Origin: Candidatus Saccharimonadota bacterium
GTDB lineage: Bacteria > Patescibacteriota > Gracilibacteria > BD1-5 > UBA6164
Direction of reading: 5' to 3'
Assembly (NCBI GenBank): GCA_004563595.2
Contig: CP042461.1
Coordinates: 780,001 to 812,000 of the forward strand
Length of the DNA: 32,000 nt
Below are positions 360 through 26,374 of the stretch, in pieces. Position numbers and translations under genes: made by a program. The notes under the pieces are model-generated. The model did no database searches, had not been told where the DNA came from, and saw only the letters and a program-made list of their open reading frames with translations. Position 1 is the stretch's first letter, and every line of letters starts with the position of its first letter.

Positions 360-1763
<1,404 letters not shown>

Positions 1764-9095: not shown

Positions 9096-10565
9096 TTATC
9101 AGGCTTTTTTATCATCTAAAACTGAGATGAGTTGATTTAAATATTTTTTTGATAAATCAGCTTCAATTGATTTCATTGTTTTAGGTCCAAAAACTCAGGC
9201 TCCCATATCATCAGTGTGTTGTATAATTTCTTTATCTAATTGATAGTCAATTAGACTTGTTTTTGTAATGTCTCAAAATATTGCTGTATCTTTATTATCA
9301 AAATATCATAATTCTTTTAATGTTTTTTGTAACTCTCTTACTCCAGGTGATACTTCTCCAAATTTTGGAGATCAAAGAGATACTAATTTATCTTTTGCTT
9401 TTTTCTCTGAGAGATCCTCTAGTTCTTTAAATTTCTTTTCCAATTCTTGTTTTCTTTCCTCTTCCTCAAATTTCTTTTTTTCAATTTCTAAATAATTACC
9501 ATATTTCTTCTGTAAAACAGCTCTCGTTTTTGGTCCGTAACTTCATGCTCCTGGAGTATACTCACTTACTACAATCCCTTCTGAAATTTGGAAATCATAT
9601 ATCGTACTTACAAGATCTTTATAATTTCATGTAAGTTTTCATTCATATATTCATAATTTTATTAAAACTTCTTGTAAAAGTTTAATATCTTCTTTTTTTG
9701 TAACGTTTCACTGTAATATATTTTTATATTTATCAGTATTTTCTAATACTGTTCATTTATCATGATTCTTATTTTCTACAAATTTATCTCACTCTACTAT
9801 GTCATATTCTCAATTTAAATACTTTTTTAGAAATAATGCTCTTGTGTTCCCTCCCCAATAACCAGCTCAATTGTAGGTTCATTTTTTAATGAGTTTGTTT
9901 TCTATTTGAAAATCATAAATAAAATCAATTAAATCCGAACTATATATTCCGTTCATTTCACCAGTATATACTCAAATAGATATAAGGAATTTTTTCAAAT
10001 TATTTACCAGTTTTTGATCACTATCTTTCCCTATTCATGTATTAAATATATTTGGGATTTTTTTAAAATTTTTAGTTACCCATGTAGGAGCAGATATATT
10101 ATTATAATCAAGCGTTGTTTGTGTATTTTGTTTTACTATATTTCATTTCACAGTCCTTTTTCCCCAATATAATGCTCTTCTTAATCCTTCATCTCCATAC
10201 CCTACCCAAACATCTATCCTATCATAACTATAGCCTCTATTTCAAGCATTTACAATCGCTCATCACCTATCCTCTATTACTCATACTCATAATCACTCTA
10301 AATGAATCTTCGTTCAAAATTTATAATTTTTTGGTCAAGCAAGCATTCATGAAAAAACTTTTTTTCATGATGCTCATGCAATTCATTTTCAATTAAGCCT
10401 CATCTCACTTTTATAATCTCAAGTCAGGTAATAGTTTTGATCTGGAAGAGGAGAATAATATGCAGTTACAACAAAATATCCAGCATTACTATTAGAAAAA
10501 GCTGTATATGGGTACAAAAAAGATACCATTGAAACGGATAATATAAAGGCTAAGATTTTCCTCAT
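9096..10565 (-). CDS. secreted 3D-domain (MltA/RlpA-like fold) protein with three peptidoglycan-binding repeats and a charged coiled-coil linker (489 aa)
   Basis: Signal peptide MRKILAFILSVSMVSFLYPYTAFS. The 3D domain reads YFVVTAYYSPLPDQ...GKGIAGASGKKVF...GVIEDRGGAIVNAGNRGYSYDRIDVWVGYGDEGLRRALYWGKR. PG_binding_1-like repeats follow (GVYTGEMNGIYSSDLIDFIYDFQ; GIYEGKLTGNYKDLVSTIYDFQ; GYFDNKDTAIFGDITKTSLIDYQ), with an E/K-rich stretch between repeats 2 and 3. Confidence 0.8.
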
Positions 10566-10610
10566 AAATATTTTCTTAAAGGTATTAATATATGAGTAAT
10601 TTTAGCATAT

Positions 10611-10681: not shown

Positions 10682-11935
10682 TTAAAGTATTAATTTTAAA
10701 AATTTTAGTTGTTGTTTTTTCTTTTTAGATCCAGATTTATCAATGACTTTTTCCAATTTTTTCCTGAAAGAAGATTTGATTTTATATTTCTTTAAATTAT
10801 TTCATCCTGATAGAGTATCAATATATGAAAGTATTTTATATTTCACTTTTTTTAACTTGAGTATTTCCCTTCTTGTAAGTTTTGTATAATCCTTTAAATA
10901 TTCAACCTCTGCAAATATTCAAGATCAAAACTGAGTATGCAAAGTATCTAATGTTTTCACTCAAAAATATCATGCTTCTTCACTTATCCTACTTTCTATG
11001 ATATGGTTTTTTATCTGAAAATCTATGAGTTCATCTTTTATACTGTTATAATCTCCATCAATATCTTTATTATACAGTTTAATTTCAGTAAATAAGGATT
11101 GTAATTTTTTAATATCATCCTTTTTACTCTCAGCATTTACTCTCAATTTATTATATTTTGTAACTGGTGACTCATCAAATCCTACAGTAGGTAATTGCTC
11201 ATCTTCAACTATTCTTCATTTCACTTTTCTTTTTCACCATTTCAAAGCTCTTCTGAGTCATTCATCTCAATATCACATCCATATATCGATTCTATCATGC
11301 TCAAATCATCTCTCTCAAGCATTTACAATTGCTCACCCTCTATCTTCAACACTTCATATTCAAATTCATTCTAGTTCAATTTTAGTCCCATACTTATAAT
11401 TTCTTGGGGCTGCGAAAAGTCCCACGAAAACAGGTTTTCATGAAGCAGTAATTTTTCAATTTCAATTCAACCTTTTATCTCAGGCGTATGTTCAAGTAGT
11501 ATATCTTTTTTGTCATGGAAGCGGTGAATAATATGCAGTTACATAAAAGTATCTCTCATTACTTTCAGGCTCATCAACTTTCAAGGTGTTCAAATTATCC
11601 TTAAATCTATCTCAAAATTCTTTTTCAAGAGCAGTAAGGGTTTTCTTTCAAAAAAATCATGCTCACCAATCATCGCTATATTTTACTATTCATGCTGTCA
11701 TTTGATAATCAATGAGAGATTTTTCTATACTTGAATATTTTCCATCAATATTTCAATTATATAAATCTAAACTTTTAAAGAATATTTGAAGTTTTGTTAT
11801 TTTTACGATATTAGACTCCGCAGATATATTTGATTCTATACCAGAAAAAGAACTAGATGCCGAGACACCTAGAACTCCAAAAAAGAAAAATATGATTGAT
11901 ACGAGTATAAGAACTATACTCTGGAATGGTTTCAT
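10682..11935 (-). CDS. secreted/anchored 3D-domain protein, paralog with permuted domain order (417 aa)
   Basis: Hydrophobic N-terminus MKPFQSIVLILVSIIFFFFGVLGVSA. A PG-binding repeat comes first (LYNGNIDGKYSSIEKSLIDYQ...GFFGKKT). The 3D domain follows: YFYVTAYYSPLPGQ...GNGKITASGKPVF...GSVEDRGGAIVNAGERGFEHDRIDIWMGYGDEGLRRALKWGKR. A second PG-binding repeat and a K-rich tail complete it. The track ORF 11753..11935 is only the N-terminal fragment. Confidence 0.8.
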
Positions 11936-11998
11936 AATATTATTTACGAATAATGATTGCGAAACAATTATATGAAAATATTGAATAAAGCAAGTTTA

Positions 11999-17425: not shown

Positions 17426-17457
17426 AAAAAAAAGAACAATAAATTGTTCTTTTTTTA
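17426..17457. terminator. weak bidirectional hairpin
   Basis: aaaaaaaAGAACAataaatTGTTCTttttttt lies between the tatD stop (17405) and the convergent stop at 17455. The stem is short. Confidence 0.45.
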
Positions 17458-18339
17458 ATTTGATGCAAATAACTCATCATTTTCTGAAATTTCATTTAAT
17501 CACAGCTCCATTAACATTTCTTTGAAATCATCACTATTGCTATATAATTCTTTACAAAAATCATAAATATCGTCGATATCTAATCAATTATTATTACTCG
17601 TTTTAAAGTATTTTTTAAATGAAAGCAAAACAGAATCAGGAATAAGTACCATTACTTTCTTTGGACCAACAAATTCAATTGCTCACTCTTTTATTGCTAG
17701 AAAAATCGATTCAACAATAAGAAATAATTGCTCTTTTTTTGAAAGTGTATCAAACTCACCTTCGAGTCAGACTAAAAATTTACTAATTACATCTCATGAC
17801 TGAGATGTAAACTCGTCATAACTACTTTGAAACCTATCTGATAATGTTGCCTGAGATCATTCTGAACGCTTTAAGTTATCAATTCCAGTAGAAAAAAAGT
17901 CTAACATAGAGTCACTGAGATCATCTAGTTTATTTAACACTACTGTATTAAATAATGAATCAGATTCAACCAGCTGTCAAAGTGTTTTATTGTCACTTCT
18001 TGTTTGTAAGTTTCATATTTCAATTACAATTTCTTGAGAAAGTTTAAATCTAGCTGATAGACTTTTTTTTGTTATAGAATCATATCACTTAATTATATTT
18101 TCTAAAGCTTGTAATTTCTTTTTTAAAGGTTGAATAAGCTTCCAATCAACGGTCTCTTTGTTATCGTAGATTTCTAAAACTGCCTGTTTTAAGTCTATTA
18201 AATCATCAGAAATTTTTTGCTTATTATGAAAATTGCCTAATAAATCTTCAATATTTTCAATATCAGAAATAAGTCATTGGAAAGATTCTTCCAAATCATC
18301 AGTGTATCTCTGATTATATTCTTGAGCTGACAAAGACAT
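17455..18339 (-). CDS. hypothetical acidic, probably all-helical protein (294 aa) co-transcribed with the PilB-like ATPase
   Basis: The start lies 12 nt after the ATPase stop. The frame is open under table 25 (MSLSAQEYNQRYTDDLEESFQG...NDELFASN). No TM segment and no recognised motif. Confidence 0.6.
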
Positions 18340-18351
18340 TTTAGTGTTATT

Positions 18352-19566
18352 TTAATATTCTAAATCAATAATATCAGTAATATTTACTGATCATTCCAAA
18401 GCTTTATATAGAGCATCAATATAAAAAGGAATAAATCATTTTTTTAAAAGGGCTTCTTTTAATTCTGTCTCTCATGCATTTGATAATAGTAAATCATATA
18501 TATCATCATCTATTTCAGCTATTTCTGATAATACTACCGATCAGTTATAACCTTTATTACATTTTTCACATCCTCATGGGTTATTCTTGAAAACTGCAAT
18601 AATATCATCATTAATATATTTTTGAAAAATTTCTGGAAGTGTATTTTTATTAATCTTAGTCTCAACTTTGCAACTTTCACAAAGTCCTTTTATCATTTTT
18701 TGTGAAATTATATATTTAATCCCGCTTGCTAACAAATATGAATCAATTCATAATTGACGAATTCTCGTTACTACTGAAATAGAGTTATTCGAATGAATGG
18801 TTCACATGACAATATGTCAGGTATTGGCAGCTTCCAAACAAGTCTGAGCCTCTTCTTTTCTTCTTATTTCTCAAATCATAATTACATCTGGATCTTGCCT
18901 GAGTATTCAGACTAAACCTTCAGAAAATGTATAAGAATTTTTATTACTTGAACTTCATTTTACAGTTTTAATTTGTGACTGAACATATCAATCTATTTGA
19001 TACTCAATTGGATCTTCAAGAGTAAAAATTCATGACACATCTGGGTCAAATTCATTTAAAAGGGCATATAAAGTTGTTGTTTTTCAACTTCATGTCCCTC
19101 AACACACAAGTACTAATCATTCTTGAATACTCGTGACTCTTTTTAATAATTTTGCATTGTTTTCAGAAAATCATAATCAACTAATTTGTAAATAGTTACT
19201 TTCAGTTAATAAAAGCCTTATAACAATATTTTCTCCATAGATTGTTGGAAGACTTGAAACTCTTCCATTTACTCAAACCTGTTTTGTATTTACAGCAAGA
19301 TTCATGAAGATCTTTCCATCTTGGATATGATTATGCTCACTAATATCCATCCCTGACAAGACCTTAATCGAGTTAATAAACTTATCGTGGAGTTCTGGAG
19401 AAAAAGAATATAATGTATGGAGCTCTCATGATATTCTAAATTTCACATTTACTTCATTTTTTCATGGAGAGATATGTATGTCTGAAGCTTTATATGAAAC
19501 TCCTCATTGTATAAGTTTCTCTATAAAGTTATTTGAATCATCAAAAGAAATATGTTTTTTTTCCAT
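18352..19566 (-). CDS. pilB: type II/IV secretion (GspE/PilB-family) assembly ATPase, short form (404 aa)
   Basis: ASDIHISP...; Walker A LVCGGTGSGKTTT (three Gly encoded by TGA); Asp box TLEDPIEY; Walker B/His box ILRQDPDVIMIGEIR...TGHIVMGTIHSN; tetracysteine Zn motif CESC...CEKC, which is typical of PilB/GspE rather than PilT. The long N-terminal domain of canonical PilB is absent, so the symbol is a family-level assignment. Confidence 0.85.
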
Positions 19567-21692: not shown

Positions 21693-21780
21693 AAAACAAG
21701 AAAATTATGAGAAATAAACAAACGTATATAAATATATAGTATTTTTTAAAATATAAAAATATAAAATAAATTATGCATTA

Positions 21781-21809
21781 AAAAAAGAGATATACGAATC
21801 TCTTTTTTT
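21781..21809. terminator. hairpin terminator after the PTD-repeat gene
   Basis: aaaaAAGAGATatacgaATCTCTTttttt lies immediately downstream (minus sense) of the stop at 21808-21810. Confidence 0.55.
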
Positions 21810-23025
21810 AATTTTCTAAACAAATCGTAAATGCCCAAAAATAATTATAAACTGGATCAGTTGTTTTATATGCAACAGCTCCAATCTTAACACCAGCTAC
21901 ATTAAATACTTTATAGTAATCTCCTCAACTTGTTTCATTTGAAATAAATAAGTTCCAAGTCGCTTCTGGGAGTTCTAAAGTAGTAATACTCGAGATATTT
22001 GAATAGATTTTGAATTCATTAAAACCTATTGGACAAGCTTGGATAGTTGGGAAAATAGGGCTTCTCATAGAATCTACTACTACTTTTAATTGTTTTCATC
22101 AACTTACGTATGCAGTATTATTGAAATAACCTAGTGGATCTGTTGGGTCCGTTGGGTCCGTTGGATCCGTTGGATCTGTTGGGTCCGTTGGGTCCGTTGG
22201 GTCCGTTGGGTCCGTTGGGTCCGTTGGGTCCGTTGGGTCCGTTGGGTCCGTTGGGTCCGTTGGATCTGTTGGGTCCGTTGGATCTGTTGGGTCTGTTGGA
22301 TCTGTTGGGTCCGTTGGATCTGTTGGGTCCGTTGGATCTGTTGGGTCCGTTGGATCTGTTGGGTCCGTTGGATCTGTTGGGTCCGTTGGATCTGTTGGGT
22401 CCGTTGGATCTGTTGGGTCCGTTGGATCTGTTGGGTCCGTTGGATCTGTTGGGTCCGTTGGATCTGTTGGGTCCGTTGGATCTGTTGGGTCCGTTGGAGT
22501 TACTATAACTGGAGTTGTTGTTTCTTGTAGTGGTTCTTCTTCTGTTATGATTTCAGTTTCTTTTACTACTTCCTCTACAATATCAGTTGAATCTTCGATA
22601 ATATCTGTTTTTCACTTTTCTGTCACTGTGGAACTATCAGGTTCTGTTGATCAATTAGTATTTTGACTAGAAGAGCTTCATTTGTTAGATGTACTTGTAG
22701 AGTTTGTATTTTCTGATCACTCAGAAGTATTTGATTGATCAGGTGCAGATGCATAAGGAACCTCTTCATTAATTCACTCTCATTCAGAAGCTTGAGTAGA
22801 AGTTTCATTTGAAGTTCACTCTGGTCATTCAGATGAAGTATCAGTTTCTTCCTGTTGATCCGGACTTGAAACCTCAATTACTATTAATTTCTCACTTTCC
22901 TGAAAAGAAGGAATAAATGCAAATACTACTCATCAACTTATAAGCACTCAAACAAAACCCAAAAGTACGATCGTTTTATGATATTCAAAAAATATCATAA
23001 AGTCATTTATCCAATCATTTAACAT
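21808..23025 (-). CDS. membrane-anchored surface protein with (Pro-Thr-Asp)x40 repeat linker (405 aa)
   Basis: N-terminal TM segment (TIVLLGFVGVLISGGVVFAFI), about 130 aa of S/T/E/N-rich acidic low complexity, 120 aa of uninterrupted PTD repeats, then a C-terminal domain of about 108 aa (PLGYFNNTAYVSGGKQLKVVVDS...YNYFWAFTICLEN). The track + strand ORF 22134..22508 is the antisense shadow of the repeat. Confidence 0.75.
22135..22494 (-). repeat. 40 tandem 9-bp units (coding sense ACGGACCCA / ACAGATCCA)
   Basis: I counted 40 in-phase units directly. There are 9 consecutive ACGGACCCA units (22180-22260) and 11 perfect 18-bp alternating pairs (22297-22494). Two hybrid units sit at 22162 and 22288. 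All differences are synonymous third-position changes. The repeat is a GC-rich island in AT-rich DNA. Confidence 0.95.
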
Positions 23026-23087
23026 AAATTTAATTTTTTATTTTCTATAAACTATGTAAAAGGATATCATACTTATATATATATAGC

Positions 23088-23120
23088 AAAAAACAACTCA
23101 TAAAAATGAGTTGTTTTTTT
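23088..23120. terminator. hairpin terminator between pilin gene and PTD-repeat gene
   Basis: aaaaAACAACTCAtaaaaaTGAGTTGTTttttt: a 9-bp stem just downstream (minus sense) of the pilin stop at 23132. Confidence 0.55.
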
Positions 23121-23131
23121 AAATATTAATC

Positions 23132-24571
23132 TTATTTATATAAAAGTTTATAATCATCAATTTCAGCACTCGTAGCACTTAATTCTATAATTGGATTTCA
23201 AACTGACATAATAGTACCATCTCAATAAAAACTTTTTGGAATATCATTTATAAATAATTCTATACTAATTCAAGAAAATATAATCTTCACCGTACTATTA
23301 TTTGGAATAGCTTCAACAAGTGAATCCAAAGAAACCAAACTTCACAAATACATTCTTTCTATATTATATCAATTTGTAGGATGAAGAGTAATTACATAAT
23401 AATTGTTTGCATCGACATAACGAGAATATATCTTTATATCTCCTCATTGGAAATCAGATATTGTCAATTCAAGTATTGTATCTGCAGAAGTAATAGCAGG
23501 AGAAGGTAGAGGAATCACTCATGATCAAGCACTAATTTTTCTTAATTTATTTCAGACAATAGAATATGATCATATACTAGCCCCTGTCCATGATCACAAA
23601 GTATCAGGTACATGAGAAAGCAAAGCTTCATCAGTTCAAAATGTATCACTGAAAAGATTATCAGGTGCAGCATCATTCACTGCTTGAACTAAATCGTTTC
23701 AAATCTTTATTCCATTTTCTTTTAACTTTTCAATTGATCAAAGCTGAAAAGGCGTGGTAAGTGAATGGAAAATTATTTGATCAAATTGTATTTTTCAATT
23801 AAATGTTTGATATGCAAGAGATAACTTAGATATATATGAATTTAATTCTGATAAAGTGGTAACACTACATGAATTTAAAACTTCTGAGATAGTAAAATCG
23901 ACTCATGTAAGTGGAGTATCCACTTGGTCTTGAAAATTTGTTGGAATATTTAAACTCGTATTATAACTAAATTTGTATGTTCCAGCATTTGATAAGATTC
24001 ATCATGCAGGAACATCTGTTATCATCATTGATGGTATTGCTAAATTATAACAAGTACTTCAAGTTTGAACTTTCATATCATACAAATCATATTCTCATGC
24101 AACAAAAGCTTGAGCTTCATTATTTGAAAGCGCATTTGTTTCTGAAATAATGTTATTATTATAAGAAAACAAATCTCCCTCCATAATTCATCCAATCTCA
24201 TATTTTTTTCTTGAACTAGAAACAGAATAATTATACTCTAATTCTAATAAAGGATCAACTGGTTTGTGTGATAAAGTTCCTAAGTTTGTCATAACATTAT
24301 CTCAAAATACTCATTGAGAAAAAACAAGCGCTCATGAGTATGTTATATCCTGAGCATTATCTGCTTGGGGATACTTTCATGTTTTCACTACAAAAATTCA
24401 TAATGCTTGTTTCATAGTTCAAACATCAATAGATCTTACTGAATTTCTTGATTTTTTTGAGTACCCTTGAAGTGATAAAAAAGCTATAGTTCACAAAATC
24501 GCTAATATTGTTATAACAACTATCAACTCAACTATTGTGAAACCCTTTGTAGTATTTCTCATAACTTTGCA
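23132..24571 (-). CDS. large type IV pilin-like protein with C-terminal LamG/ConA-like region (479 aa)
   Basis: Prepilin class III signal ...YEKYYKG/FTIVELIVVITILAILGTIAFLSLQGY (Gly-1, Phe+1, Glu+5), followed by about 440 further residues. The tail ...YVDANNYYVITLHP...VKIIFSGISIELFINDI resembles a LamG-type jelly roll. The start is assigned to TTG 24569-24571, the only canonical start in frame, with GGAGGA 15 nt upstream. The nearby ATG 24561 is out of frame. Confidence 0.8.
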
Positions 24572-24691: not shown

Positions 24692-26374
24692 TTATTTCCT
24701 AATATTCATTTTTAATTGTTCAGCAATATGCTTTTTTTCAAGTAAATGTGGGCTATTCACTCATGAAATTGATGCTACTTGAATTAATCATTTATTATGA
24801 GCTTTCACAAAATTCCCAATTTGTTCTATTTTTTTATCCCAAGTTTGTTTGTATGCTCTTCTATTTTTCTTTTTCATAGTTGCAAGCCCTACAGGACAAT
24901 CTCAATATTCACCTGAACATAAACCAGCTCTAATACACCCTCATGCAATCATTATAGACCTTGCATTTCAAATTGCATCTGCTCAAAGAGCAAGAGCCTT
25001 CGCTGACATAAATGGAGAATAGAGTTTTGCAGATGCAAATACTCTTACCTTATCTCTTACATTATATTCATTGAGAGTTTCAATAGCTATCTGAAGAGCT
25101 TCATATATTTTCTTTCAAAATAATGTAGAAAGGTAAATTGGAGCTGCTCATGACCCACCATCCCCTCAATCAATAGTAATAAAATCTGGTGCTATTTCTG
25201 GATAATCTGCAATTGCTTTTGCGAGTGGTTTAATGTTTGATTTATCTGATATAACTATCTTCATTCACACAGGCTTTCCTCATGCTTTTTCAGAAAGATG
25301 ATCAATAAACTCAAAGAACTCTTTTTCTCATCATTTATTATAAAAGGGGAATCTATTTGGAGATATCAGATCATGTCCTGGCTCTACTCACCTAATTGCA
25401 GCTACCGTTGGATTATTTTTTACAGCTTTTAGTACTCAACCACTTTGTTTTGCTCATTGAGCAAGTTTAATTTCAACCCCTCTACAAAATGACATAATTT
25501 TCTGAAACCTATCCCAATTAAATTCTAAACTTCCATCTGTAGTATGTTTTTTAAGTCCATAGAGTCACGAACCTATTTGTAAAATAACTTGTCAGAAATC
25601 ATCTGTCATATCTTCTACTTTTGGAAAAGCACTTAATGGTGCTGACCAATCAATGGTATAAAATACAAACGAGTCTTTGCAAAATAAATATAAATCAGTT
25701 TTATCTTTTTCTAATAATTGTTTCGCAAATATATCAACGATATGATTTTTTAACCTTGCTCAAGGTGTTAACTTGTAGAGTATTTTTCAAATTTTAGGAA
25801 GTCTAACATATTTAAAATATTTTTTATCTTCACTGAATGGAATCCTTGGAACATGTTGAATCGCAAATCCTCATTCTCCTGTATTGAATGGTGCTTTTGT
25901 GTCAGCACAAGCTGCAGCCATTGCAGAAGTTGCCTCAAAACTAAGAGCTCACAGACTCATCGCACTTCTATATATATATGAACCAAATTGAAATGGGTGT
26001 TTTCTTTTTTCTCATACAATTGGAAATTTTACATCCATTTCATCTGCATTTAATGGAGTTGAAGAGTGAATCATATCATATTGACCATTATGAAGTGTTC
26101 CACTCGAATCAAATTTATCAAATCAAAAATATCCAGTTTTCCCACTTGATACCTTTAAAATCCAATCAATTACAACTCTATTTACAAAATCATTATCATC
26201 CAAAAAATATTGCCTTATAAAAGGTCTTATTTCATGGCCTAAGTATCTGAATCTCCCAATAAGTGGAAAGTTTGCAAGTACTAAATTTTTTGTCTGAAAA
26301 AATCTATCATATATTGCTACACATAATAACAAAGCAATGATAAATCAGATAATTCCTAGAAATATATATAACAT
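24692..26374 (-). CDS. membrane-anchored FMN-binding glutamate-synthase-family oxidoreductase (GltB domain-2 homolog, 560 aa)
   Basis: N-terminal TM segment MLYIFLGIIGFIIALLLCVAIY, then NFPLIGRFRYLGHEIRPFIRQYF. FMN-domain motifs are AMSLGALSFEA, KLAQGAKQSGGVL, DLISPNRFP and ITIDGGDGGSGAAP. The C-terminal stretch is GGCIRAGLCSGEYGDCPVGLATM. The track ORF 26123..26332 is a fragment. Confidence 0.85.

What the first reader, a model, noticed from the sequence alone, without database searches (positions are those of the whole stretch)
21808..23025. Surface protein with 40 perfect Pro-Thr-Asp repeats encoded by a GC-rich 9-bp microsatellite
The interval 22135-22494 is 40 uninterrupted 9-bp units and stands out as a GC-rich island in AT-rich DNA. 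On the coding (minus) strand every unit reads Thr-Asp-Pro. The only variation among units is synonymous (ACG/ACA, GAC/GAT), including the two hybrid units. The units are arranged as a homogeneous 9-unit block plus eleven perfect 18-bp alternating pairs. This points to recent slipped-strand or recombinational expansion under strict protein-level constraint, and it predicts length polymorphism between cells or strains. The protein has an N-terminal TM anchor, an acidic S/T-rich region, the rigid PTD stalk (resembling PT linkers that are often O-glycosylated) and an unknown C-terminal domain of about 108 aa. That is the layout of a stalked, cell-surface-displayed binding module. It sits directly downstream of the giant pilin gene but behind its own terminator.
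Basis: partly seen in the sequence, partly recalled or inferred. Interest (0 to 1): 0.7.

Follow-up and report, generated by a model that had tools for sequence, protein, structure and literature searches.

The report
Published PTD-repeat stalk protein, pilin-partnered family
The 40-unit Pro-Thr-Asp repeat gene is real, but it is the "hypervariable PTD repeat protein" already published in 2019 for a marine Gracilibacteria genome; what is new here is that it belongs to a conserved family of membrane-anchored stalk proteins that usually sit next to a large type IV pilin gene.

Summary
Window 22138-22497 (minus strand) holds 40 perfect 9-bp units that all encode Pro-Thr-Asp. They lie in a 405-aa ORF that is only open under genetic code 25 (TGA = Gly). 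This is not new: the protein, the codon statistics and the flanking stem-loops match the "variable PTD repeat protein" of the closed Gracilibacteria BD1-5 genome (Sieber et al. 2019, mBio, PMC6851277). That paper already reported the four synonymous 9-mers, the TM anchor, the extracellular prediction and the expected slippage. It also states that the unit number and order are a manual reconstruction that short reads could not measure. New here: the non-repeat parts define a family, with 15 database representatives and about 20 metagenome loci, all from TGA-recoded organisms. The 14 full-length members share an N-terminal motif plus one TM helix, a 200-747-aa acidic Thr-rich stalk holding a lineage-specific in-frame tandem repeat, and a ~105-aa all-beta C-terminal domain with the protein's only two Cys. 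That domain models confidently (pLDDT 85) but has no PDB or BFVD fold match. In 9 of 11 informative lineages a homologous ~480-aa type IV pilin lies directly upstream. One homolog appears with 4, 9 and 14 units in different samples. Most likely it is a surface-displayed partner of that pilin whose stalk length varies.

The parts
21808..23025 (-). Complete CDS of the PTD-repeat stalk protein (405 aa plus TAA stop; genetic code 25, 14 in-frame TGA = Gly)
   Evidence: Non-repeat residues are identical to Text S1A of Sieber et al. 2019 apart from PDF-reading noise. Codon percentages match the paper exactly.
22975..23025 (-). Conserved N-terminal (predicted cytoplasmic) motif, aa 1-17, MLNDWINDFMIFFEYHK. 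The family consensus is MF.DL(L/I).(D/E)I..F. It validates the start codon.
   Evidence: N-terminal alignment of 14 full-length family members
22906..22974 (-). Single transmembrane helix (signal anchor), aa 18-40
   Evidence: Kyte-Doolittle 19-residue peak 2.59 at aa 19-38 and no other TM-like window. Also predicted by Sieber et al..
22498..22905 (-). Acidic Ser/Thr/Glu-rich low-complexity spacer, aa 41-176 (net charge -27)
   Evidence: An equivalent low-complexity region is present in all family members.
22138..22497 (-). 40 x 9-bp tandem array encoding (Pro-Thr-Asp)40, aa 177-296; four synonymous unit variants; 57.8 % GC
21811..22137 (-). Conserved C-terminal all-beta domain, aa 297-405. 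It contains the protein's only two Cys (C331, C402) and ends ...FTICLEN.
   Evidence: 15 relatives at E 4e-18 to 5e-4; alignment A1; AlphaFold2 with A1 gives pLDDT 85.0, pTM 0.76 and 7 strands; no PDB or BFVD fold match; no Pfam, NCBIfam or PDB sequence match
23088..23119 (-). Hairpin (14-bp stem, 4-nt loop) followed by a U-run, between the pilin stop and the stalk-gene start; terminator- or attenuator-like
   Evidence: The 115-nt intergenic stretch (23026-23140) that contains the hairpin folds at -20.2 kcal/mol, z = -3.4, with 0 of 200 shuffles as stable. Corresponds to the 14-15-bp stem-loops in Fig. S4 of Sieber et al.. The consensus scanner missed it because it requires at least 3 G-C pairs.
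21777..21812 (-). Hairpin (15-bp stem, 6-nt loop) with flanking A- and U-runs, overlapping the stop codon; intrinsic-terminator-like
   Evidence: The 76-nt stretch (21740-21815) that contains it folds at -15.7 kcal/mol, z = -4.7
23132..24562 (-). Partner gene: a 476-aa type IV pilin-like protein. It has a prepilin N-methylation motif and alpha1 helix, plus about 400 aa with no known match.
   Evidence: Pfam N_methyl 1.1e-6; NCBIfam GspG/IV_pilin_GFxxxE; the profile matches PilA/PilE/GspG N-termini only; full-length homologs at 35-45 % identity lie directly upstream of the stalk gene in 9 of 11 informative lineages
23033..23060 (-). Weak sigma-70-like promoter match (TTTACA-16-AAAAAT) between the upstream hairpin and the start codon; a possible own promoter
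   Evidence: 9 of 12 matches. This is a consensus match only. The region shows no excess of such sites over shuffles.

Best explanation
This is the published 'variable PTD repeat protein' of the closed marine Gracilibacteria (BD1-5) genome from a Deepwater Horizon oil microcosm. It belongs to a family specific to Gracilibacteria-type organisms that read TGA as Gly. Its members are bitopic membrane proteins. A short conserved N-terminal motif and a single TM helix hold the protein in the membrane, N-in and C-out. A very acidic, Thr-rich, low-complexity stalk of about 260 aa (net charge -67) includes (Pro-Thr-Asp)40 and projects outward as an extended chain. If the PTD part is polyproline-II-like it could reach roughly 37 nm. 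At the tip is a conserved ~105-aa all-beta domain, probably disulfide-bonded, which is the working end. The gene is a conserved partner of the large type IV pilin encoded directly upstream. The most likely role is cell-surface contact, meaning attachment to a host, prey or substrate together with that pilus. Because the stalk is encoded by near-identical in-frame tandem DNA units, slipped-strand mispairing or unequal recombination changes stalk length without destroying the protein. Different lineages have replaced the repeat unit entirely while keeping its Thr/Asp-rich acidic character. Shown: identity with the published gene, the family, the architecture, the pilin synteny and the allele series in a homolog. 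Inferred: topology, extended conformation, disulfide, binding function and the cooperation with the pilus.
For: Identity with the published gene: the 285 non-repeat residues match Text S1A. Six codon percentages in the paper equal the 40-unit window gene to the printed precision. GC content, code 25, the four PTD 9-mers and the flanking 14-15-bp stem-loops all match. Family: an exhaustive HMMER search gave 15 representatives, E 4e-18 to 5e-4, mostly 398-579 aa with the domain at the extreme C-terminus. A DNA-pattern scan gave 12 further true family loci among 19 pattern matches. Architecture: all 14 full-length members have the N-terminal motif, one TM helix, a stalk of 200-747 aa with net charge -28 to -109, and exactly two Cys, about 72-87 and 4 residues from the C-terminus. 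Every member has an in-frame tandem array in the stalk, but with a different unit: 9 bp PTD here, 27 bp TTP(P/H)DDGGG, 51 bp TDGDTTTTTDPDGTTTT, and 39/153 bp S/G/E-rich. The C-terminal domain is a real fold: pLDDT 85, pTM 0.76. Pilin linkage: a full-length pilin homolog lies immediately upstream on the same strand in 9 of 11 informative lineages. The other flanking genes differ between lineage groups, though several lineages share prenyltransferase and ClpP neighbours. Length variation: L023, L008 and L019 carry the same gene (99.3-100 % nt identity in the flanks) with 4, 9 and 14 units. L019 equals L008 plus 5 copies of the terminal unit. Native ancestry: TGA-Gly codons occur throughout the family genes and even inside the 27-bp repeat units.
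Against: There is no experimental evidence for expression, topology, glycosylation or binding. The C-terminal domain has no fold or sequence relative of known function, so 'binding module' rests on position and conservation only. Two divergent members (L032/P0009 and L037/P0015) lack the upstream pilin. In this genome a strong hairpin separates the pilin gene from the stalk gene, so co-expression is not assured. Unit counts in all assemblies, including the 4/9/14 series, come from short-read or low-coverage contigs and could be collapsed. Many contigs break in the array (L009, L010, L020, L021, L025; a gap in L007). For this gene the authors inferred from coverage that unit number is 'not highly variable'.
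Confidence: 0.6

Rival explanations
1. Pilus-machinery accessory, not an adhesin. In this reading the protein is a bitopic inner-membrane component that assembles, anchors or regulates the specific large pilin encoded upstream. Its conserved cytoplasmic N-terminal peptide would dock onto the assembly machinery, much as the PilN N-terminus binds PilM.
For: Tight and conserved gene pairing with the pilin, with intergenic gaps of about 3-24 bp in several lineages. The short N-terminal motif before the TM helix is conserved across the family. A T2SSE/PilB-type ATPase lies 2.2 kb downstream in the window.
Against: No sequence similarity to PilN, PilO, GspL or GspM, or to any Pfam or NCBIfam family. 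A 200-747-aa hyper-acidic disordered stalk of freely varying length is not a feature of known alignment-complex proteins. Two members occur without the pilin.
Confidence: 0.2
2. Envelope spacer or shield. In this reading the working part is the acidic repeat itself. It would form a polyanionic brush or a membrane-to-wall/S-layer tether whose length sets envelope spacing or shields the surface against phage, predators or adhesion. The length-variable Vsa proteins of Mycoplasma pulmonis work this way. The C-terminal domain would merely anchor the distal end.
For: Composition (Thr/Asp/Ser/Gly-rich, net charge -28 to -109) is conserved across the family while sequence and unit length are not. Unit number differs between samples. 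In the published population only synonymous variation is tolerated in the repeat.
Against: The C-terminal domain is the best conserved part of the protein (36-52 % identity, two conserved Cys), which points to a specific interaction. The conserved pilin pairing is not explained by a generic shield.
Confidence: 0.12
3. The PTD array, or its GC-rich part, is foreign or partly artefactual. It may have been acquired from, or reconstructed with reads of, the co-occurring abundant Colwellia psychrerythraea, which carries the same 9-mer in a 3,459-aa surface protein. If so, the array's unit order, its 9-unit homogeneous block and its count of 40 would not describe any real cell.
For: [quoted passage not shown] Both arrays end with the same 9-mer, and the locus was rebuilt by manual read placement. 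ACG and GAC are rare in this genome (39 of 453 Thr codons, 59 of 492 Asp codons) but make up 60 % of array units. The array contains no TGA.
Against: The gene as a whole is native. It has 14 TGA-Gly codons outside the array and homologs only in TGA-recoded organisms. A Thr/Asp-rich tandem array at the same position is ancestral to the family. GAC and ACG enrichment inside arrays recurs in two other lineages whose repeats are unrelated and, in one case, contain TGA. So GC-rich codons do not by themselves imply a foreign origin. The authors curated the read pairs and confirmed alternative coding across the region.
Confidence: 0.15

Closest known systems
BD02T64 BD1-5 'variable repeat protein' (Sieber et al. 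2019, mBio 10:e02128-19, PMC6851277; genome CP042461)
   Same: It is the same gene. The non-repeat sequence is identical and the four PTD-encoding 9-mers are the same. Codon statistics, TM prediction, flanking stem-loops, genome GC content and code 25 all match.
   Different: Nothing differs at the sequence level. The 76 units in the held copy of Text S1 are a PDF-reading artefact. The paper did not report homologs of the non-repeat parts, the conserved C-terminal domain or the pilin pairing. It also floated acquisition of the region from a Colwellia-like bacterium, which the family data argue against for the gene as a whole.
Ser-Asp (SD) repeat stalks of staphylococcal Clf/Sdr adhesins (own knowledge: Hartford et al. 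1997 showed that the ClfA SD region must be long enough to project the ligand-binding domain through the wall; SD repeats are glycosylated by SdgA/SdgB)
   Same: A short acidic Asp-containing peptide repeat encoded by a short in-frame DNA repeat. It acts as a length-variable spacer between the anchor and a folded binding domain.
   Different: The orientation is reversed: here the anchor is an N-terminal TM helix and the domain is C-terminal, whereas Clf/Sdr have a C-terminal LPXTG wall anchor. There is no LPXTG motif and no homology. The unit is Pro-Thr-Asp, not Ser-Asp. The spacer function is inferred here, not shown.
Pro/Thr-rich 'PT' linkers of bacterial glycoside hydrolases (e.g. Cellulomonas fimi CenA/Cex; own knowledge)
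   Same: Pro every second or third residue plus Thr gives an extended, protease-resistant and often O-glycosylated linker between modules.
   Different: PT linkers are 20-40 aa, uncharged, and not encoded by perfect DNA repeats. This array is 120 aa, carries -40 charge and is identical at the DNA level.
Size-variable tandem-repeat surface proteins of wall-less, TGA-recoded Mollicutes (Mycoplasma pulmonis Vsa, M. hyorhinis Vlp, Ureaplasma MBA; own knowledge)
   Same: Membrane-anchored surface proteins in small, AT-rich, TGA-recoded, host-dependent bacteria. In-frame tandem repeats change in number and modulate adhesion or shielding.
   Different: Those are lipoproteins with the repeat at the C-terminus and no conserved distal domain. 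They are not pilin-linked and are not homologous.
Modular type IV pilins with grafted adhesive modules (e.g. Streptococcus sanguinis PilB/PilC; own knowledge)
   Same: This describes the partner gene: a canonical pilin N-terminus followed by a very large extra region (476-490 aa in total).
   Different: The ~400-aa C-terminal part of the Gracilibacteria pilin matches no known module. No separately encoded TM-anchored stalk partner is known for those pilins.

Membership tests
Published BD1-5 variable PTD-repeat protein (Sieber et al. 2019) | Amino-acid sequence outside the repeat as in Text S1A | tested here: met
   Global alignment of 176 N-terminal and 109 C-terminal residues. The only differences are a few single-residue insertions, one deletion and two swapped residues, typical of machine-read PDF text.
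Published BD1-5 variable PTD-repeat protein (Sieber et al. 2019) | Four 9-mer nucleotide variants all translating to PTD, with the paper's codon incidences in the gene | tested here: met
   Four variants found. GAC 6.17, GAT 6.67, ACT 4.20, ACC 0, ACA 6.91 and ACG 6.42 % against the paper's 6.2, 6.7, 4.19, 0, 6.9 and 6.4. Versions with 58 or 76 units do not fit.
Published BD1-5 variable PTD-repeat protein (Sieber et al. 2019) | Flanking stem-loops with 14-15-bp stems and 4-6-nt loops; genome about 28.9 % GC; code 25 | tested here: met
   14-bp stem with 4-nt loop and 15-bp stem with 6-nt loop. Window GC 28.5 %. TGA = Gly.
Type IV pilin / pseudopilin | N-terminal class III signal peptide with the G/FTLxE N-methylation motif | tested here: not met
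   No N_methyl or IV_pilin_GFxxxE hit for the target, although the upstream gene hits both. The target N-terminus MLNDWINDF... belongs to a different conserved motif.
Phase-variable contingency locus (on/off switching by a simple sequence repeat) | Repeat unit not divisible by 3 inside the ORF, or a repeat in the promoter, so that slippage switches expression | tested here: not met
   The unit is 9 bp. All family arrays have periods divisible by 3 (9, 27, 51, 39/153) and lie within the ORF. Slippage changes length, not frame.
Size-variable tandem-repeat surface proteins (functional class: SD-repeat adhesins, Alpha C/Rib, Vsa/MBA) | Near-identical in-frame tandem DNA repeats inside a surface-protein gene | tested here: met
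   40 units with 96-100 % identity. Surface location is predicted from the single N-terminal TM helix only.
Size-variable tandem-repeat surface proteins (functional class) | Copy number differs between strains or cells | tested here: inconclusive
   Not measurable for this gene. The paper says short reads cannot determine the number and that coverage suggests it is not highly variable. In a homolog, 4, 9 and 14 units occur with 99.3-100 % identical flanks in three samples, but assembly collapse cannot be excluded.
Size-variable tandem-repeat surface proteins (functional class) | LPXTG sortase signal or lipoprotein lipobox anchor | tested here: not met
   The protein ends ...FTICLEN with no LPXTG. 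The N-terminus has no lipobox Cys, and the only Cys are C331 and C402. Anchoring would be by the TM helix.
O-glycosylated Pro/Thr linker | O-linked glycans on Thr of the linker | not testable with these tools
   Composition only: 40 Thr in the array, and 23 % Thr in the stalk region between the TM helix and the C-terminal domain. No glycosyltransferase gene was identified next to the gene.
Pilin-associated acidic stalk protein family (defined here) | N-terminal motif MF.DL..(D/E)I..F plus a single TM helix | tested here: met
   Alignment of 14 full-length members.
Pilin-associated acidic stalk protein family (defined here) | C-terminal ~105-aa domain with two conserved Cys and the signature YYKVFNVNGVKIG.V.YKT.NPD.DY.W.FTICL | tested here: met
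   E = 3.7e-40 for the window protein against the family profile, and it is the only copy in the window. See also alignment A1.
Pilin-associated acidic stalk protein family (defined here) | Homolog of the ~480-aa pilin immediately upstream on the same strand | tested here: met
   In the window the pilin stop is 106 bp upstream of the stalk-gene start. The same arrangement holds in 9 of 11 informative lineages.

The most novel reading that the evidence does not exclude
The stalk protein and the large pilin together form a previously unrecognised two-gene attachment module of Gracilibacteria-type (code 25) CPR bacteria. The conserved, disulfide-bonded C-terminal domain would have a fold with no known relative. 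It would dock onto the pilin's ~400-aa unknown module or onto the same host-surface ligand. The rapidly turning-over acidic repeat would set the working distance, so repeat-length alleles would tune host or prey contact in these uncultivated episymbionts.
Probability: 0.3. Interest if true: 0.6.

Novelty: already known. Interest (0 to 1): 0.35.

Why it matters
The finding as stated rediscovers a published curiosity, so it adds little by itself. The extension matters somewhat more. The 2019 paper treated the gene as an isolated oddity, possibly imported from Colwellia. It is instead one member of a conserved family native to TGA-recoded bacteria, and that family is usually paired with a large type IV pilin. 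This gives a concrete candidate for part of the host-contact apparatus of Gracilibacteria, whose hosts and attachment mechanisms are unknown. It also names a small, confidently modelled domain of unknown fold to test. There is a practical point as well: assemblies break or collapse at this locus in many metagenomes, so unit counts from short-read MAGs should not be interpreted.

Tried and rejected
1. Table-11 ORF calling fragments the gene. This was rejected in favour of code 25 after codon counts and Walker-A restoration. Code 4 (TGA = Trp) was rejected because it would give about 4 % Trp and put Trp at invariant Gly positions.

2. The word-indexed protein search with the C-terminal domain found nothing. 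Scans of GTDB genomes and JGI metagenomes with exact 8-mer peptides also found nothing. The domain looked like an orphan until the exhaustive HMMER search.

Placing X at the three TGA positions was accepted.

4. The single-sequence AlphaFold model was useless (pLDDT 41.6). Only the alignment-based model was used.

5. Synteny through the Glu-synthase-domain neighbour gave only distant Gracilibacteria and Absconditabacterales MAGs, with no conserved neighbourhood and no target homolog.

A hand-designed degenerate DNA pattern that avoids Gly/TGA columns replaced it. Seven of its 19 matches were chance hits in unrelated short ORFs.

7. The consensus terminator scanner reported 0 sites because it needs at least 3 G-C pairs. 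Direct folding showed both hairpins.

8. The 76 PTD units in the held copy of Text S1 at first suggested a different assembly version. This was rejected after the paper's codon percentages matched only the 40-unit gene.

9. Foldseek against the PDB and BFVD, PDB sequence and profile searches, and Pfam and NCBIfam scans gave no informative hit for the C-terminal domain or the full-length members.

10. The idea that the protein is itself a pilin was rejected because it has no prepilin motif.
Full report
**1. Observation.**

The window is 28.5 % GC. Under table 11 the region breaks into short ORFs. In-frame TGA is the commonest glycine codon in the window: 423 TGA against 243 GGN, with TGG kept for Trp. 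TGA also encodes the invariant glycines of the Walker A box of the T2SSE ATPase (G-g-G-T-g-S-g-K-T). The genome therefore uses code 25.

Read this way, 23025..21808 on the minus strand is one 405-aa ORF with 14 TGA codons. TRF reports a single strong array at 22135-22498 (period 18, 20.2 copies, score 644). Parsing it unit by unit gives 40 uninterrupted 9-bp units:
- CCAACGGAC x23
- CCAACAGAT x15
- one CCAACAGAC
- one CCAACGGAT

All of them encode Pro-Thr-Asp. The order is (AB)x11-CB-AB-Ax9-B-D-A-A-B. The array is 57.8 % GC and the rest of the gene is 31.6 %. About 44 % GC is forced by Pro/Thr/Asp codons. The rest comes from ACG and GAC, which are rare elsewhere in the window (39 of 453 Thr codons and 59 of 492 Asp codons).

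**2. It is already published.**

A literature search led to Sieber et al. 2019, mBio 10:e02128-19 (PMC6851277). That paper describes the first closed Gracilibacteria (BD1-5) genome: 1.343 Mb, 28.87 % GC, code 25, GenBank CP042461, from a Deepwater Horizon oil microcosm. Its headline curiosity is a 'hypervariable' gene with these features:
- Four major 9-mer nucleotide repeats all encode PTD.
- There is one N-terminal TM helix, and the rest is predicted to be extracellular.
- Only beta and coil secondary structure is predicted.
- Stem-loops with 14-15-bp stems and 4-6-nt loops flank the gene.
- The population shows 17 synonymous and 0 non-synonymous variants.
- Slipped-strand length variation is expected.

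The protein in their Text S1A is identical to the window protein outside the repeat, apart from PDF-reading noise. My folds of the two intergenic regions give a 14-bp stem with a 4-nt loop (z = -3.4) and a 15-bp stem with a 6-nt loop (z = -4.7), as they describe.

The held copy of Text S1 shows 76 PTD units. However, the paper's codon incidences for the gene (GAC 6.2, GAT 6.7, ACT 4.19, ACC 0, ACA 6.9, ACG 6.4 %) equal those of the 40-unit window gene to the printed precision. They do not fit 58 or 76 units. The window is therefore the published curated sequence, and the 76 is a reading artefact.

[quoted passage not shown] They report that the order of variants differs between cells. From coverage they judge the number to be about right and 'not highly variable'.

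**3. New here: a family.**

The C-terminal 109 aa has no Pfam, NCBIfam or PDB sequence match. The word-indexed protein search and the exact-peptide scans of GTDB genomes and JGI metagenomes also found nothing. An exhaustive HMMER search of 1.84 billion representatives, with X at the three TGA sites, found 15 relatives (E 3.7e-18 to 5.5e-4). Most are 398-579 aa with the match at the extreme C-terminus. Their excess of Trp, in columns where the window has Gly, shows that they are code-25 genes translated with code 4.

Further members came from tracing these proteins to contigs and from a degenerate DNA-pattern scan for the signature Y[YF]K[VI][FYI]N[VA]N-x-[VI]K. The scan gave 12 true family loci and 7 chance hits. 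After re-translation with code 25, all 14 full-length members share one plan:
- a conserved start motif MF.DL(L/I).(D/E)I..F, which also validates the start codon at 23025
- a single TM helix
- a low-complexity stalk of 200-747 aa with net charge -28 to -109, usually Thr-rich
- a ~105-aa domain that ends ...FTIC(L/V)x(D/N) and contains the protein's only two cysteines

Each member has an in-frame tandem array in the stalk, but the unit differs by lineage:
- 9 bp, PTD (this gene)
- 27 bp, TTP(P/H)DDGGG
- 51 bp, TDGDTTTTTDPDGTTTT
- GDTSGGGDTGGTDTGS
- 39/153-bp Ser/Gly/Glu-rich units

In one truncated member (P0012) the stalk is replaced by tandem ~97-aa modules with only weak Ig-like similarity.

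With the 16-sequence alignment, AlphaFold2 gives a confident seven-strand all-beta model (mean pLDDT 85.0, pTM 0.76). The single-sequence model was useless (pLDDT 41.6). Foldseek finds nothing significant in the PDB (best E 0.43, TM below 0.36) or in BFVD (best E 0.011, TM about 0.3). AlphaFold DB was not available.

**4. The pilin partnership.**

The gene upstream in the window (24562..23132) is a 476-aa protein. It has a prepilin N-methylation motif and a pilin alpha1 helix, followed by about 400 aa that match nothing.

I could examine the upstream DNA of a complete family gene in 11 lineages. In 9 of them a full-length homolog of this pilin (35-45 % identity, 476-490 aa) lies immediately upstream on the same strand. 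Those lineages are the window, L008/L019/L023, L011, L012, L026, L033/L034, L035, L036 and L031. In L031 the pilin is split by one stop in a 2x long-read contig. Intergenic gaps run from about 3 bp to 106 bp.

The other flanking genes are less consistent. Several lineages share polyprenyl or undecaprenyl synthase genes upstream and ClpP downstream. Others carry a DEAD-box helicase, and the window has a Glu-synthase-domain gene and a Na+/H+ exchanger. The pilin is the only neighbour conserved across these different contexts. Two divergent members (L032/P0009, L037/P0015) lack it.

The 2019 paper does not mention homologs or the pilin neighbour. It suggests the region may have come from a Colwellia-like bacterium. 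No later paper in the library mentions the family. The family data argue that the gene is native to TGA-recoded bacteria: TGA-Gly codons are spread through all members and even lie inside the 27-bp repeat unit. Only the origin of the particular PTD 9-mer, shared with a Colwellia surface protein, stays open.

**5. Length variation.**

L023, L008 and L019 come from three different metagenomes. They carry the same gene, with 99.3-100 % nucleotide identity in 540 bp 5' and 390 bp 3' of the array, and have 4, 9 and 14 units. L019 equals L008 plus five more copies of the terminal unit. This is the pattern expected from slippage or unequal exchange. These are assemblies, however, and the locus is a known assembly hazard. 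Contigs L009, L010, L020 (a 152-kb contig), L021 and L025 end inside the array, and L007 has a scaffold gap there. It is unmeasured for this gene, and the only published estimate, based on coverage, leans against large variation.

**6. Mechanism.**

Shown:
- sequence identity with the published gene
- family architecture
- a conserved, well-modelled C-terminal domain
- the pilin synteny
- in-frame arrays with lineage-specific units

Inferred:
- N-in/C-out topology, from the single hydrophobic helix, with the only nearby basic residues (His16, Lys17) on its N-terminal side and the acidic stretch on its C-terminal side
- an extended stalk. Pro at every third residue and -40 charge favour a polyproline-II-like, self-repelling chain, about 3.1 Å per residue or roughly 37 nm for the array (textbook geometry).
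- an extracytoplasmic disulfide between the two conserved Cys
- a binding role for the tip domain
- cooperation with the pilus

The closest functional analogue known to me is the Ser-Asp repeat stalk of staphylococcal Clf/Sdr adhesins, with the orientation reversed and a TM anchor in place of LPXTG. The protein is not a pilin, because it has no prepilin motif. It is not a phase-variation switch, because the units are divisible by three. Rivals are a pilus-assembly accessory, an envelope spacer or shield, and a partly foreign or artefactual array. They are set out with their tests in the rival-explanations section.

**7. Verdict.**

It goes too far on what the unit order means and understates the link to the pilin. 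The feature itself is already known. The family and its pilin pairing are a modest, apparently unreported extension. That extension turns a one-genome oddity into a testable candidate component of Gracilibacteria surface contact.

Noticed in passing
window 1-32000 (whole window): The window uses genetic code 25 (TGA = Gly; 423 in-frame TGA against 243 GGN). Table-11 tools fragment every gene, and no tRNA or Rfam family was found in the 32 kb.
   Followed up: yes
window 360-1763 (-), adenosylhomocysteinase-like gene: This gene uses TGA for Gly far less than its neighbours (9 TGA against 29 GGN, and 5 TGG). The Glu-synthase-domain gene (24692-26374) is also intermediate (25 TGA, 25 GGN). This could mark more recent acquisition from a standard-code organism. 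It fits the 2019 paper's remark that genes near the PTD gene look non-CPR.
   Followed up: partly
window 22138-22497; L008 and L019 27-bp arrays; L012 51-bp array: Rare GC-ending codons (GAC, ACG) are enriched inside the tandem arrays relative to the rest of the same gene in three unrelated lineages. For example, GAC:GAT is 24:16 against 1:11 here, 10:8 against 4:14 in L008, and 5:14 against 1:28 in L012. The cause is unknown. It could be a mutational or conversion bias in arrays, or selection on DNA or RNA structure.
   Followed up: partly
window 22138-22497: Every CCAACAGAT unit followed by CCA creates a GATC site, and the single CCAACGGAT unit creates GGATCC. The 360-bp array therefore carries about 16 regularly spaced GATC sites in a genome of 28.5 % GC. 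I did not look for a matching methyltransferase or restriction system.
   Followed up: no
window 22134-22508 (+): The opposite strand of the array is an open 124-aa frame (LGPLDLL... repeats) under table 11. It is a mirror artefact of the repeat, not a gene.
   Followed up: yes
window 9096-10601 (-) and 10682-11995 (-): Two adjacent paralogous secreted-looking proteins share a 'YFxVTAYYSPLPxQ...GxGxxEDRGGAIV...RIDxWxGYGDEGLRRAL' core and repeated peptidoglycan-binding-like modules. They may be cell-wall hydrolases. They were not scanned against Pfam.
   Followed up: no
window 18352-19566 (-) and 17455-18339 (-): A T2SSE/PilB-type ATPase (Pfam 5.9e-93) lies 2.2 kb downstream of the stalk gene on the same strand. 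It is followed by a 294-aa protein with no family. Neither is part of a compact pilus operon with the pilin.
   Followed up: partly
L009, L010, L020, L021, L025 (contig ends); L007 around 1740-1840 (run of N): Contigs from independent metagenomes end exactly inside the stalk repeat of family members, including a 152-kb contig. One scaffold has a gap there. The locus is a recurrent assembly breakpoint, as it was in the 2019 genome.
   Followed up: yes
L031 1069-2544: The partner pilin is split into 331-aa and 145-aa ORFs by a single stop, in a contig labelled '2x'. This is probably a sequencing error and not a pseudogene.
   Followed up: partly
P0012 (579 aa, N-terminally truncated representative): Here the family's C-terminal domain follows at least five tandem ~97-aa modules (weak Y_Y_Y and DUF7108_C similarity, below the Pfam cut-offs) in place of a low-complexity stalk. 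This suggests that the stalk can be built from folded repeats in some lineages.
   Followed up: partly
PMC6851277 supplementary Text S1 as held: The machine-read copy of the published protein shows 76 PTD units and several inserted residues. Codon statistics in the paper show that the real published gene has 40 units. Repeat counts taken from machine-read PDFs are unreliable.
   Followed up: yes
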